From positions 1-8,449 of IMG/VR virus record IMGVR_UViG_2529293069_000019: a stretch of DNA of 8,449 bases; one strand, written 5' to 3'. The first letter of the stretch is position 1; the number at the start of each line of letters is the position of its first letter. Source of the stretch: a virus. Taxonomy: Duplodnaviria; Heunggongvirae; Uroviricota; Caudoviricetes. The position numbers were made by a program. This document shows, one piece after another, positions 3,001 to 8,449 of this stretch.

Positions 3001-6000
3001 TGCTGAAGGTACAGAAAACAAAAAATGGCATACCCTATGTTGCCGGTATTGGAGCGGGGATTGAGGATACTGATGGCTCAGCCCCTGAGCAACATACTGC
3101 TGCTGGCTGACCGTATTGCGATGATTAACCCGGAGGACGGCAACACCACGCCGTTATTTGTGGCGCAGGGGAATCAGTTGTTCATGAACGATGTGTTCCT
3201 GAAGCGGCTGTTTGCGGTGAGTATCACCTCGTCCGCCAATCCCCCGACGTTTTCCCTGACGCCGGAGGGCAGGCTGACCGCAAGAAATGCTGATATCAGC
3301 GGTAACGTGAATGCGAATTCCGGGACGCTCAACAACGTCACGATTAACGAGAACTGTCGGGTTCTGGGAAAACTGTCCGCGAACCAGATTGAAGGCGATC
3401 TCGTTAAAACAGTGGGCAAAGCTTTCCCCCGGGACTCCCGTGCACCGGAACGGTGGCCATCAGGGACCATTACCGTCAGGGTTTATGACGATCAGCCGTT
3501 TGACCGGCAGATTGTTATTCCGGCGGTGGCATTCAGTGGTGCTAAGCATGAGAGAGAGCATACTGATATTTACTCCTCATGCCGTCTGATAGTGCGGAAA
3601 AACGGTGCTGAAATTTATAACCGTACCGCGCTGGATAATACGCTGATTTACAGTGGCGTTATTGATATGCCTGCCGGTCACGGTCACATGACGCTGGAGT
3701 TTTCGGTGTCAGCATGGCTGGTGAATAACTGGTATCCCACAGCAAGTATCAGCGATTTGCTGGTTGTGGTGATGAAGAAAGCCACCGCAGGCATCAGTAT
3801 CAGCTGAATTTTATAACCCATATACGGGCGCCAGAAATGGCGCCTTTTTTATTGCAGAAAAGCGAGAGGTAATTATGCGTAAACTTTATGCCGCCATTTT
3901 GTCCGCAGCCATTTGTCTGGCCGTATCCGGTGCGCCTGCATGGGCGTCTGAACATCAGTCCACGCTGAGCGCGGGGTATCTTCATGCCCCGACGAACGTT
4001 CCTGGCAGCGATGAACTGAACGGGATTAACGTGAAATACCGTTATGAGTTTACGGACACGCTGGGGCTGGTGACGTCATTCAGCTATGCAGGAGACAAGA
4101 ATCGCCAGCTTACCCGTTACAGCGATACCCGCTGGCATGAAGATTCCGTTCGTAACCGCTGGTTCAGCGTAATGGCGGGGCCGTCTGTGCGCGTGAATGA
4201 ATGGTTCAGCGCGTATGCGATGGCGGGTGTGGCTTACAGCCGTGTGTCGACTTTCTCCGGGGATTATCTCCGCGTAACTGACAACAAGGGGAAAACGCAC
4301 GATGTGCTGACCGGAAGTGATGACGGTCGCCACAGCAACACGTCTCTGGCGTGGGGGGCTGGCGTGCAGTTTAACCCGACCGAATCCGTGGCCATTGATA
4401 TTGCTTATGAAGGCTCCGGCAGTGGCGACTGGCGCACTGACGGTTTCATCGTGGGTGTCGGTTATAAGTTCTGATTAGCCAGGTAACACAGTGTTATGAC
4501 AGCCCGCCGGTTCAGGCGGGCTTTTTTGTGGGGTGAATATGGCAGTAAAGATTTCAGGTGTACTGAAAGACGGCACAGGAAAACCGGTAGAGAACTGCAC
4601 CATTCAACTGAAAGCCAGACGTAACAGCGCCACGGTGGCCTCTGAAAATCCGGATGAAGCCGGTCGTTACAGCATGGACGTTGAGTACGGTCAGTACAGC
4701 GTCATTCTGTTGGTGGAGGGATTCCCGCCGTCACATGCCGGGACCATCACCGTGTATGAAGATTCTCAACCGGGGACGCTGAATGATTTTCTCGGTGCCA
4801 TGTCGGAGGATGACGTCCGTCCGGAGGCACTGCGTCGTTTTGAACTGATGGTGGAAGAAGCAGCGCGTCACGCAGAGGAGGCGAAGAAGAATGCCGGAGA
4901 AGCAGAGACGTCCGCGAGGAATGCCGGCATATCAGCCAGTAAGGCGGAAGCGAGCGCGGCAAATGCTGACACTTCAGCAGGGGAAGCATCGGAGTCAGCC
5001 CGGCAGGCGACGGAAAGTGCAGCCTCAGCAAAGCAGTCAGAGGAGGCGTCCTCGTCCTCGGCCTCTGCGGCCGCTCAAAAAGCCAGTGAGTCATCACAAA
5101 GTGCAGCAGATGCTGAGTTGTCAAAAAAGACGGCAGAAAGTGCAGCCGGTAATGCAGCCAGGGATGCAACGACCGCAACAGAAAAAGCCCGGGAGTCAGC
5201 AGAAAGCGCACAGTCAGCGGAACAAAGCAGGATAGCGGCGGAAGAGGCCGTAAACCGAATCCCCACGGTGGTGGGGCCTCCCGGGCCAAAGGGGGAACCG
5301 GGTCCCGCGGGTCCTCAGGGGCCGAAGGGAGATAAAGGAGAGCGTGGAGACACCGGTCCGGCAGGGGCAACCGGTGAAAGGGGGCCGGCAGGTGATGCTG
5401 GTCCGGCAGGCCCGGCAGGCCCGGCAGGCCCACAGGGACCGAAAGGAGAAACAGGTGCGGCTGGCCCGGTGGGGGCAACCGGACCTCAGGGGCCGAAGGG
5501 CGACCCGGGGGAGACGCAAATACGGTTCCGTCTGGGGCCGGGAAACATTATTGAGACAAACAGCCATGGCTGGTTCCCGGATACAGATGGCGCACTCATC
5601 ACCGGACTGACCTTTCTTGACCCCAAAGATGCCACACGGGTTCAGGGTTTTTTTCAGCATTTGCAGGTCAGGTTTGGTGACGGGCCGTGGCAGGATGTTA
5701 AGGGGCTTGATGAAGTGGGCAGTGATACAGGCAGAACAGGAGAATGACATGAACATACTAAAAAAACTTATGCAGCGTCTGTGCGGTTGCGGAAAGCATG
5801 ATGACCGTGAACACGGGGGGTTACTTACAGCACAACTGCGTCTGGGGCCGGCAGACATTCTGGAGTCAGATGAGAATGGCATTATCCCGGAGCAGGACAG
5901 GGTAATCACGCAGGTGGTGATACTGGATGCGGATAAAAAGCAGATACAGTGCGTGGTAAGACCGCTGCAAATCCTGCGTGCTGACGGGACGTGGGAAAAT

Positions 6001-8449
6001 ATTGGCGGGATGAAATAGCCCGACAGCTTCACAAAAACCGGAGTCCGGCTCCGGTTTTTGTTGTCATGTATGGGGGCTGTTTGTTATGACTCCCTGTGTT
6101 TGGAATGAATATTTAAATAGGGAGTTTTGTCATGCCGTTAACATCAGCTATTGCATCCAATTCATTTTCCACCGGAATGCAGGTTCTTCGTGCTCAAATG
6201 GCCGCCAGTGGCGGTGGAGAAATTACAGTAGGCGGGCAGACGGTCCGTATCACATATAGTGAAACGGATGGTCGCTTTCTGGCGAGTGGGGGCAATAACA
6301 GTTTGCTTTCTGGATTATTACTTACAGGGCTTAATGGTGGTCCTGAAGCGCTCAGGGATATAATGTTAAGAATGGTTTCAGGTTCAGGTAACACACAATC
6401 ACATGGTGATATTGAGGGGAAAATATCACAATGTAAGTTTTCTGTTAATACGGAGAGCCTTCAGTGTCCATCCGAGGCGGTTCGATGCCCAATTATACTG
6501 GATAAACCAGAAGAAGGTGTGTTTGTTAAAAATTCAGAAGGTTCTTTGGTTTGTACCTTATTTGATTCGGTTTCTTTTTCTCATTTGGTTCGCGACGGTG
6601 GGAAGCACCCGCTAACACGAGAACCAATAACGTCATCAATGATTGTAAGTCAAGAACAATGTATTTATGACCAAACCAAAGGAAACTTTGTCATAAAGGA
6701 TAAGTGAAATAAATATTACCCAAGCTATATGTTAACTGCCAGTTGCTTATATGAAATGCTACAGATGTTCAGGGTATAAGGATGTGGTAATTGGTGTACT
6801 GGATGCAGCTAAAAAGCATATACAGTGAGTGGTGAGGCCGCTGCAAATCTGGCGTGCTGACGGGGAAATATTGGCGGGATGAAATAGCCGACGGATTCAC
6901 AAAAACCGGAGTCCGGCTCCGGTTTTTGTTGTCATGTCAGGGAGATGTTTGTTATGAAGCCCAGAGGAAATATTTATCTGTATGAAGGAATATGGTAATG
7001 CCTGGATTAGTATCATATATATCATCGACTTCATTCGCGAATGAGATGGCGGAGATGCGTCAGCAGGTAATGGAAGGGCAGATTGGTGGATTTCTCCTGG
7101 GAGGGGAGAGAGTTAGAGTTTCTTATTTATTTCAATTGCATTAATATCTTGAATGGATTACATAGAGTTAATGTATCCAGTACTCCCTATTCTCTTGCAT
7201 ATAATACATGTTGCAACTTACATCTCAGCGCTATGAAAAAACACCACCTCTCTCTTTATGAAATTCTGGATTTACCAAGCGCTAATTTATCATTTCAATC
7301 TACCTTTAAGTATTGCATTTATCTCCCTACGAGGTCATACTTTAGGAAGTTAAATATGAATGATAATATACCTACAGCGCGAAATCACAAACAATCGACT
7401 TGTATTACAGAAAAAACATGCCTATATTTTTAAACTTCACAGCAGGAAGTATCTTACCTGAGAATGAGCTAGCATCTTTACGTTATATTGTGCAGCAAAA
7501 TCAAAATGATACTGTAATCATAAAAGAACGTTATAAAATGGATATCCGTTATATCGAATCAGTCAATGGTTTTACAGTAAATCCTGTATGCAGTAATCAT
7601 TTCTCCATATTTATGGCGAGACAAAACACTATTGCTCGCAACCTGGAACAGCAGATCAACAACGGACGAAGTTTTGCACAAATATCTCAGGATTTTATGC
7701 TTCAATTATCTTCAAATATAGGATGGAAAAAAGGGGCCGAAAACGCCCTTAAAAATAAAATCCATTCTCATTCATTTGTTGTAAATCCTGATGAATTCTC
7801 TTGCGACACACAATTTCTTAAGTGCCCAATAACATTATGCGTTCCAGAAAAAGGGGTTTTTGTCAAGAATGCACTGAACTCCAACATATGCACTCTTTAT
7901 GATAAGTCTGCGTTCATGAATCTCACAAGAGAACATCTACCCCACCCTCTCAGCAGGGAAAAGATAGTAAAAGAAATGATTATTGAAAGGAATATGTGTT
8001 ATTTTGACACCATAAGTCAGCATTTCATAATTATGGATGCAGACCAACAGAAACAGCATTGTAAATAAAATGTAATAATTACATACTATTAGTGATTCTC
8101 ATGCATCGTAAGCGGCTCGCCAGAACCGTATTGATATTTACTGAGGAGCCTGTACATAGATTTGTGTAATTGCCTGATTTTGATATGTTCAATCCAACAT
8201 CAAAAGCAGGTTAATTTATGGACGAAAAACAGTTGCAGGCTCTGGCTAACGAACTGGCCAAAAATCTCAAAACCCCTGAAGATCTCAGCCAGTTCGATCG
8301 CCTGCTGAAGAAAATCAGCGTTGAGGCAGCTCTCAACGCTGAAATGTCCCACCATCTGGGCTACGATAAAAACCAGCCTAAACCGGGTGCCAACTCCCGC
8401 AATGGCTATTCCACAAAGACCGTTATCACCGGTGATGGCCACCTGGAAC

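What the first reader, a model, noticed from the sequence alone, without database searches (positions are those of the whole stretch)
5515..6018. Tail fibre C-terminal domain duplicated as a separate downstream 90-aa ORF
The last ~70 residues of the fibre and residues ~28-88 of the next ORF are clear paralogs (RLGPGNIIE / [38 protein letters not shown] / ILDADKKQIQCVVRPLQILRADGTWENI), with an exact 13-nt match at 5527-5539 and 5838-5850. The 90-aa ORF sits where lambda has tfa but does not resemble Tfa as I recall it. It may be a stand-alone tip domain, a chaperone, or a remnant of module exchange at the fibre 3' end; a third decayed copy lies at 6772-6892.
Basis: seen in the sequence. Interest (0 to 1): 0.5.

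Follow-up and report, generated by a model that had tools for sequence, protein, structure and literature searches.

The report
Tail-fibre knob duplicated as small gene
The end knob of a collagen-like phage tail fibre is repeated as a separate 89-residue gene just downstream; this is a real, conserved gene pair in E. coli O157-type prophages, but it is already annotated and published, and its function is still unknown.

Summary
Fibre residues 330-393 (window 5520-5711) and residues 28-89 of the next ORF (5749-6018) are paralogues. BLASTP gives 34% identity, E=3e-13, and both match Pfam PF06820 Phage_fiber_C at about 1e-35.

It is not new. PGAP names the ORF 'phage tail fiber C-terminal domain-containing protein' and PHROG 576 matches it end to end. 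Mondal et al. 2016 described the same 89-aa ORF (Sp5 ORF68) as a non-essential fibre-C-terminus copy.

What this work adds:
- The two genes are strictly linked: 296 versus 296 phage records and 698 versus 697 E. coli genomes, about 10 copies per genome, with an invariant AGGAG..TGAcATG junction.
- The ORF is under purifying selection (dN/dS 0.19 overall, 0.11 in the domain).
- Two peptides unique to its phi24B homologue are in a purified-virion proteome.

It is therefore an expressed protein, not a dead remnant. It is not a Tfa family member, and published data show the fibre does not need it.

The 'third copy' (6792-6957) is different. It is a decayed DNA duplicate of the ORF's 3' end plus terminator, and with the intact copy it brackets an nleG effector gene. 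One strain has lost that gene by recombination between the two repeats.

Function remains inferred. The most likely role is a trimeric, sub-stoichiometric fibre accessory.

The parts
3875..4474 (+). lom (Ail/Lom outer-membrane protein), upstream neighbour of the fibre gene
   Evidence: Pfam PF06316, E=8e-120; PGAP annotation in the 100%-identical stretch of strain 493/89
4533..5747 (+). Collagen-like side tail fibre of EPclA type. Domains: N-terminal fibre domain, coiled coil, collagen Gly-X-Y repeats, C-terminal PfC knob. PGAP starts it at ATG 4539.
   Evidence: Pfam PF08400 (residues 3-130), PF01391 collagen, PF06820 (residues 330-393); PHROG 366/3279 'tail fiber protein'; architecture as in Ghosh 2012, PMC3368898
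5520..5711 (+). Fibre-type PfC (Phage_fiber_C) domain, the experimentally shown trimerisation knob
   Evidence: Pfam; PfC alone and Trx-PfC are trimers by SEC/MALLS (PMC3368898)
5738..5751 (+). Coupling junction: AGGAG Shine-Dalgarno inside the last fibre codons, fibre stop TGA 5745-5747, one base, then ATG 5749
   Evidence: Sequence; the 30 nt before the ATG are identical in 12 loci from E. coli and E. albertii, plus a short contig filed under Xanthomonas that is probably E. coli contamination
5749..6018 (+). 89-aa ORF. Residues 1-16 are conserved (predicted helix 3-11, CGCG motif), 17-26 form a variable linker, and 28-89 are a PfC paralogue. Homologue of Sp5 ORF68 and phi24B gp59.
   Evidence: Pfam PF06820, 123 bits; PHROG 576, 89/89, E=7e-60; dN/dS 0.19; AF2 model; literature
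6031..6061 (+). Strong hairpin followed by a U-rich tail. Likely terminator at the end of the late operon and the last block conserved between prophages before the variable cargo.
   Evidence: RNA fold -28.5 kcal/mol, z=-5.2; homology between loci ends around here
6132..6707 (+). NleG-family type III effector gene (annotated DUF1076), first cargo cassette
   Evidence: Pfam PF06416, E=2.5e-45; PGAP
6792..6957 (+). Decayed direct repeat of 5915-6089: 3' third of the 89-aa ORF (dead), terminator hairpin 6899-6929 and about 28 nt downstream
   Evidence: 86% DNA identity; strain 1130 shows a crossover between the two repeats with loss of the first nleG
7400..8068 (+). nleG7 effector gene, second cargo cassette (PGAP start at 7418)
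   Evidence: Pfam PF06416, E=5e-48; PGAP

Best explanation
Shown: the window is the right end of a lambdoid prophage of an E. coli O157-type strain, in the order J, lom, collagen-like side tail fibre (EPclA type), 89-aa ORF, terminator, then nleG effector cargo.

The 89-aa ORF is an old paralogue of the fibre's C-terminal trimerisation knob (PfC), carrying its own 27-residue N-terminal extension. With the fibre gene it forms a fixed two-gene module. The module is translationally coupled and has moved as a unit between long-tailed lambda-like phages and short-tailed Stx phages.

Shown: it is a real protein under purifying selection, and its phi24B homologue is detectable at a low level in purified virions.

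Inferred: like the fibre's PfC, it forms a small homotrimeric beta knob. It acts as a non-essential, sub-stoichiometric accessory of the fibre tip, either bound to it or acting beside it in adsorption. It is probably not an obligatory folding chaperone.

Separately, the ORF's 3' end plus terminator is the last conserved sequence before the variable effector locus. A decayed second copy of it (6792-6957) forms a direct repeat around the first nleG gene, and homologous recombination between the repeats can delete that gene.

My confidence is about 0.95 for the identity and anatomy, about 0.8 for 'expressed functional protein', and about 0.35 for the fibre-tip accessory role.
For: Paralogy:
- BLASTP E=3e-13.
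- PF06820 matches both regions at about 1e-35.
- Predicted strands coincide in the two AF2 models.

Linkage:
- tblastn finds each domain type in 296 phage records, at adjacent coordinates (for example LC645431: 47124-47348 and 47353-47619).
- 698 versus 697 of 5426 complete E. coli genomes carry them, at a median of 11 versus 10 copies.
- The junction is invariant.
- The module occurs in siphovirus-type prophages (this window; lambda h434 imm21) and podovirus-type Stx phages (VT2-Sakai, phi24B).

Real protein:
- dN/dS is 0.19 overall, 0.11 in the PfC part and 0.35 in the N-terminus, across 9 copies.
- In the PfC part, 13 polymorphic codons are synonymous-only and 7 are non-synonymous.
- The peptides VITQVVILDADKK and ADGTWENIGGMK, unique to gp59, are in the phi24B virion proteome supplement.

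Trimer inference: PfC is a trimerisation domain (PMC3368898).

Repeat-mediated deletion: strain 1130 carries a hybrid pseudogene, copy-2-like at its 5' end and copy-3-like at its 3' end, and lacks the first nleG.
Against: - No experiment assigns a function. Sp5 deleted for ORF68 still forms plaques and lysogens (PMC5155283), so any role is dispensable on K-12.
- In the proteome table, gp59 peptides have a value of 3 in the column the table appears sorted by. The fibre's own C-terminal peptides have 38-47. Carry-over contamination is therefore not excluded.
- The phi24B authors do not list or discuss gp59 in their main text.
- The AF2 models are of low confidence (pLDDT 64.6 and 56.5), so the fold, the trimer and any contact with the fibre are not demonstrated.
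- I could not run a multimer prediction.
Confidence: 0.5

Rival explanations
1. Silent reservoir cassette (the suggestion of Mondal et al. 2016). The ORF matters mainly as DNA: a spare tip sequence that recombines with the fibre's 3' end to give a fibre with a different C-terminal knob.
For: Natural chimeras exist. P0063 joins collagen repeats directly to the ORF-type PfC at the shared GGGCCGGCAG microhomology. P0179 joins the ORF's N-terminal half to the fibre-type C-terminal half. The two genes share a 13-nt exact match at the start of the domain.
Against: The chimeras are very rare (clusters of 4 and 1 sequences, against clusters of hundreds to more than a thousand for the normal forms) and look like deletion products. 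A silent cassette needs no Shine-Dalgarno, ATG or conserved 16-residue N-terminus, and would not be expected to show dN/dS of 0.11-0.19. Peptides show it is translated. The two domain types form two tight clusters about 34% identical, with no intermediates. No invertase or inverted repeat is present, and the copies are in direct orientation.
Confidence: 0.12
2. Dedicated tail fibre assembly chaperone, a functional analogue of lambda Tfa, needed for or speeding up folding of the collagen fibre. One phage record annotates the ORF this way.
For: It is encoded immediately downstream of the fibre gene, is always co-inherited with the cognate fibre tip, and is translationally coupled. Lambda h434 imm21 labels it 'tail fiber assembly chaperone'. 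A trace amount in virions would fit a chaperone that partly stays bound.
Against: There is no sequence match to any Tfa or chaperone family. Recombinant full-length fibre and isolated PfC trimerise in E. coli without it, and PfC renucleates the collagen helix on its own (PMC3368898). The Sp5 ORF68 deletion is infectious, whereas the fibre gene deletion is not (PMC5155283).
Confidence: 0.15
3. Alternative fibre C-terminus made by programmed +1 frameshifting. This would fuse the fibre to the ORF and give a minority of fibres a second knob. The phi24B authors put 'Fusion_6159_FS1/FS2' in their search database.
For: The ORF's reading frame is open for 46 codons upstream of its ATG, overlapping the fibre's end. 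A T7 run (GGT TTT TTT, 5648-5654) lies in that overlap. The low abundance of gp59 peptides would fit a minor fusion product.
Against: The T7 run is absent (GGGGCTGTTT) in E. albertii, in L023 and in lambda h434 imm21. A shift there would remove the last 32 residues of the fibre's knob. No peptide from the overlap frame was found in the held part of the proteome file. Mondal et al. found no frameshift signal. The ORF has its own Shine-Dalgarno and ATG.
Confidence: 0.08
4. Functionless leftover of a past exchange at the fibre's 3' end, persisting only by hitch-hiking with the fibre gene.
For: It is non-essential in Sp5. The taxonomic range is very narrow: Escherichia and Citrobacter rodentium, with only 94 representatives among 1.84 billion clusters. 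Many truncated and fused copies exist in decaying prophages.
Against: It is under purifying selection and keeps a conserved start and length in thousands of copies. It is retained in active phages of two tail types. It is translated. The true leftover in the window (6792-6957) shows what decay looks like: two frameshifts and a nonsense codon within about 100 nt.
Confidence: 0.1

Closest known systems
Sp5 (VT2-Sakai) ORF68 and phi24B gp59, the 89-aa 'phage fiber C-terminus' ORF of Stx phages
   Same: Same family: 93% protein identity, same length, and same position directly after a collagen-like fibre ending in PfC. It is described in PMC5155283 as a non-essential small polypeptide made up of a fibre C-terminus domain.
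   Different: Those phages are short-tailed, with a 645-aa EPclB fibre. Here the host phage is lambda-like, with a 404-aa EPclA side fibre. Function is unknown in all of them.
EPclA collagen-like prophage fibre and its PfC domain (Ghosh et al. 2012, PMC3368898)
   Same: The upstream gene has exactly this architecture. PfC is the domain that is duplicated.
   Different: That paper does not mention the stand-alone copy. The ORF-type PfC is only about 34% identical to the fibre-type and carries an extra 27-residue N-terminus.
Lambda Tfa and the Mu/P2 tail fibre assembly proteins
   Same: Small gene immediately downstream of the fibre gene, co-inherited with the fibre's C-terminal tip. I recall that some Tfa proteins stay bound to the tip; this is from memory and was not checked here.
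   Different: There is no sequence similarity. The ORF is homologous to the fibre tip itself. The fibre folds without it.
Spare fibre-tip cassettes switched by DNA inversion (Mu G segment, P1 C segment)
   Same: A second copy of a fibre C-terminal coding segment lies next to the expressed one.
   Different: No invertase and no inverted repeats are present, and the copy is in direct orientation. It has its own start codon and is translated.
Exchangeable effector loci of lambdoid prophages (Tobe et al. 2006, as cited in PMC8112680)
   Same: T3SS effector genes (nleG here; nleB, nleC, nleF and a SopA-like gene elsewhere) sit at the prophage end just after this ORF.
   Different: The papers I read (PMC8112680, PMC5155283, PMC3368898) do not describe the ORF-plus-terminator block as the conserved left edge of the locus, or its decayed repeat inside it. 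I did not read Tobe et al. 2006 itself.

Membership tests
Pfam PF06820 Phage_fiber_C | HMM score above the gathering score (25 bits) | tested here: met
   ORF residues 28-89 score 123.3 bits and fibre residues 330-393 score 120.9 bits, both covering the full 64-position profile
PHROG 576 (89-aa 'tail fiber protein') | Full-length profile match | tested here: met
   Residues 1-89 match profile positions 1-89 of 89, E=6.8e-60
EPclA collagen-like prophage fibre (upstream gene) | PfN, coiled coil, one collagen domain and PfC, in that order | tested here: met
   PF08400 at 3-130, PF01391 at 248-299 and beyond, PF06820 at 330-393. The coiled-coil region is alanine/serine/glutamate-rich, as in the published architecture.
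Tail fibre assembly protein (lambda Tfa / Caudovirales tail fibre assembly families) | Sequence membership in a Tfa family | tested here: not met
   No Pfam, NCBIfam or PHROG hit other than fibre C-terminus families at E<=0.1
Tail fibre assembly protein (lambda Tfa / Caudovirales tail fibre assembly families) | Gene immediately downstream of the fibre gene and co-inherited with its tip | tested here: met
   Invariant TGAcATG junction; 296/296 phage records; 698/697 genomes
Tail fibre assembly protein (lambda Tfa / Caudovirales tail fibre assembly families) | Required for fibre trimerisation or assembly | not testable with these tools
   Published data argue against it: the fibre and PfC trimerise alone (PMC3368898), and the Sp5 ORF68 deletion is infectious (PMC5155283)
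Invertible or silent fibre-tip cassette systems | Site-specific invertase and inverted repeats flanking the alternative tip | tested here: not met
   The copies are in direct orientation. No recombinase lies between J and the effector genes.
Anti-phage defence proteins (PADLOC) | Match to any defence-system model | tested here: not met
   0 families for the 89-aa ORF and for its 133-aa upstream extension
Exchangeable effector locus | T3SS effector genes at the prophage end downstream of the tail fibre genes | tested here: met
   Two NleG-family genes in the window. Other effectors occupy the same position in related loci.

The most novel reading that the evidence does not exclude
The 89-aa protein is a free trimeric mimic of the fibre's own knob that works in trans. 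It would dock on the fibre tip or on the capsid to hold or release the flexible collagen fibres, or occupy the fibre's receptor on lysing cells and debris so that progeny are not trapped. This would be a kind of fibre accessory not described before: a paralogue of the tip rather than a chaperone. In addition, its 3' end plus terminator would be the recombination anchor through which lambdoid prophages gain and lose T3SS effector cassettes.
Probability: 0.15. Interest if true: 0.55.

Novelty: already known. Interest (0 to 1): 0.3.

Why it matters
These fibres are carried about ten times per genome in EHEC/EPEC strains and by Stx-converting phages. What they bind is an open question; the phi24B cryo-EM preprint lists it explicitly. 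A conserved partner gene that is a copy of the fibre tip is an obvious handle on that question, yet it has had only two sentences in the literature.

The practical gain from this work is modest:
- The ORF can be treated as a real, selected, translated protein.
- Chaperone and frameshift readings are weakened.
- The decayed repeat explains how one nleG effector gene is gained and lost between O157 strains.

Tried and rejected
- PDB sequence search: nothing for the ORF or for PfC. Only the fibre's N-terminal domain and collagen repeats have solved relatives.
- Remote homology: a profile search of 1.84 billion representatives returned 94 hits. Nearly all are E. coli fragments, and the long multi-stretch hits are unrelated repeat proteins.
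- GTDB species representatives gave only E. albertii plus two contigs (a short one filed under Xanthomonas and a Clostridiales MAG) that are probably contaminated or mis-binned.
- NCBIfam: no model for the ORF. PADLOC: none.
- Co-variation between the ORF and the fibre knob is not feasible, because both are nearly invariant.
- Programmed frameshift at the T7 run: rejected as a conserved mechanism, because the run is absent in three loci.
- Lipoprotein or signal-peptide reading of 'LCGC': rejected by eye, because the preceding residues are charged, not hydrophobic.
- Promoter scan: nothing above shuffle expectation between the fibre gene and the ORF.
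Full report
**What the window is.** The six-frame ORF list and Pfam give this order. J is split into 282-3110 and 3025-3807. Then come lom (3875-4474), a 404-aa fibre (4533-5747) and an 89-aa ORF (5749-6018), followed by two NleG-family effector genes (6132-6707 and 7400-8068). The fibre has an N-terminal fibre domain, a coiled coil, collagen repeats and a C-terminal Phage_fiber_C domain.

Positions 4400-7100 are 100% identical to a prophage of E. coli O157:H7 strain 493/89. There, PGAP names the two genes 'prophage tail fiber N-terminal domain-containing protein' and 'phage tail fiber C-terminal domain-containing protein'. 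The whole window has no match that close: the best full-length match is about 94%. The J region is therefore a different allele.

**Checking the observation.**
- BLASTP of the fibre's last 79 residues against the ORF gives 34% identity over 62 residues, E=3e-13.
- Pfam PF06820 matches both over its full 64 positions, at 121 and 123 bits.
- The exact 13-mer is at 5529-5541 and 5839-5851. A match that long arose in 1 of 2000 shuffles.

**It is already known.**
- PHROG 576 is an 89-position profile that the ORF matches end to end.
- Ghosh et al. 2012 characterised the fibre (EPclA). They showed that PfC is a trimerisation domain able to renucleate the collagen helix. They do not mention the small ORF.
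- Mondal et al. 2016 deleted every unknown gene of the Stx2 phage Sp5. [quoted passage not shown] - One lab-phage record, lambda h434 imm21, labels it 'tail fiber assembly chaperone', apparently by position only.

**Distribution and linkage.** tblastn finds the ORF in 296 phage records and the fibre-type knob in 296, with near-identical breakdowns by organism and adjacent coordinates. Among 5426 complete E. coli genomes, 698 carry the ORF (6806 places, median 11 per genome). 697 carry the fibre knob (6159 places, median 10).

The 30 nt before the ATG, including AGGAG and TGAcATG, are identical in 12 loci. The module sits in lambda-like prophages and in short-tailed Stx phages, so it travels as a unit.

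Outside Escherichia it turns up only in Citrobacter rodentium, as a decayed remnant next to nleG and lifA. A profile search of 1.84 billion cluster representatives found 94 hits, almost all E. coli fragments.

**Is the ORF a real gene?** Across nine copies, Nei-Gojobori dN/dS is 0.19 overall, 0.11 in the PfC part and 0.35 in the first 27 codons. In the PfC part, 13 polymorphic codons are synonymous-only and 7 are non-synonymous. Residues 1-16 (MNILKKLMQRLCGCGK) are conserved, 17-26 vary, and 28-89 are nearly invariant.

A 2026 preprint reports a virion proteome of phage phi24B. Its supplement contains two peptides, VITQVVILDADKK and ADGTWENIGGMK, that occur only in the ORF's homologue (gp59). 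The authors' search database contained hypothetical fibre-gp59 fusions, and one entry is labelled 'Spike or just gp59?'. The main text does not discuss gp59.

In the column the peptide table seems sorted by, these peptides have the value 3. The fibre's own C-terminal peptides have 38-47. The protein is therefore made and co-purifies with virions in small amounts, although contamination is not excluded. No peptide from the overlap frame, which would mark a fusion, was in the held part of the file.

**Testing the rival readings.**
- Chaperone: there is no Tfa-like sequence. The fibre and PfC trimerise without the ORF, and the deletion is viable.
- Reservoir: rare chimeras exist. P0063 joins collagen to the ORF-type knob at a GGGCCGGCAG microhomology, and P0179 joins the ORF's N-terminal half to the fibre's C-terminal half. 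They are singletons or near-singletons beside clusters of hundreds to more than a thousand normal sequences. Selection on the protein, its own start signals and its translation are not what a silent cassette would show.
- Frameshift fusion: the ORF's frame is open for 46 codons upstream, and a T7 run lies in the overlap. That run is replaced by GGGGCTGTTT in E. albertii, in L023 and in lambda h434 imm21.
- Dead remnant: contradicted by the selection data and by comparison with the truly decayed copy described below.

**The 'third copy'.** Window 6792-6957 aligns to 5915-6089 at 86% DNA identity. It covers the last ~34 codons of the ORF (broken by a 1-nt deletion, a nonsense change and a 7-nt deletion), the terminator hairpin and about 28 nt beyond. 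The hairpin after the intact ORF folds at -28.5 kcal/mol, z=-5.2.

Homology between prophages ends just after this hairpin. Different cargo follows in different prophages: nleG, nleB plus nleF, a SopA-like gene, an unknown 250-aa gene, or nleB- and nleC-like genes in lambda h434 imm21. The two repeats thus bracket the first nleG gene.

In O157:H7 strain 1130 that gene is missing. There the ORF is a hybrid pseudogene whose 5' part matches the intact copy and whose 3' part matches the decayed copy. This is a deletion by recombination between the repeats. The third copy is a scar of cargo stacking and a substrate for cargo loss, not a third fibre domain.

**Verdict.** The finding is real, statistically solid and correctly located, but it is an annotated and published feature. 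My additions are the selection analysis, the strict linkage figures, the unremarked virion peptides and the reading of the decayed repeat. Function is still inferred. I favour a small trimeric, non-essential fibre accessory, at about 0.35.

Noticed in passing
window 282-3807: The J (tip attachment) gene is split into two overlapping ORFs in different frames (282-3110 and 3025-3807). The homologue in strain 493/89 is one intact 1158-aa CDS. This suggests a frameshifted J and a defective prophage in the window's source.
   Followed up: partly
window 1-4400 versus 4400-7100: Positions 4400-7100 are 100% identical to strain 493/89, but the window as a whole matches that locus and every other complete genome at only about 94%. 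The prophage is therefore a mosaic, with a J allele not represented in the complete genomes.
   Followed up: partly
window 4501-4522: A terminator-like hairpin (8 pairs, then TTTTTT) lies between lom and the fibre start codon. The fibre and ORF pair would then be transcribed by read-through.
   Followed up: no
L025 (lambda h434 imm21) 2730-5210: A classical laboratory lambdoid hybrid carries the same fibre and 89-aa module, followed by NleB-like and NleC-like type III effector genes.
   Followed up: no
L015-L020 (Citrobacter rodentium) 3479-4916: A prophage remnant holds a 161-166-aa fusion of the fibre's N- and C-terminal domains, then a 78-aa ORF with a damaged N-terminus, then an nleG fragment. 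An IpaB/EvcA-family gene and lifA (lymphostatin) lie nearby.
   Followed up: partly
L008 4001-4570: Two tandem intact copies of the 89-aa ORF lie 30 nt apart, with an 'N' in the junction. This is either an assembly artefact in a draft genome or a real tandem duplication.
   Followed up: no
P0233 (565-aa metagenomic protein): This protein has four tandem ~85-residue units resembling the second half of PfC (…VVVLDAD…ILRVRxADGTWxxIP…), followed by collagen repeats. The shared 'DG(T/S)W' hairpin looks like an Asp-box (from memory, not tested). P0261 is a divergent 136-aa stand-alone PfC protein.
   Followed up: partly
L005-L014, L021, about 125 nt downstream of the ORF, minus strand: A 250-aa gene with no Pfam family is the commonest neighbour after the terminator in prophages next to the hydrogenase operon.
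   Followed up: no
window 8200-8449: The window ends inside an IS256-family transposase that follows nleG7 in strain 493/89. In strain 1130 the same IS is truncated by ISEc8.
   Followed up: no
phi24B proteome supplement (preprint 10.64898/2026.04.10.717836): In one late-numbered gel band, the hypothetical fusion entry has one more count than the fibre itself (25 versus 24). This hints that the gp59 peptides come from a different, possibly low-mass, band. The band order is not given in the text held.
   Followed up: no
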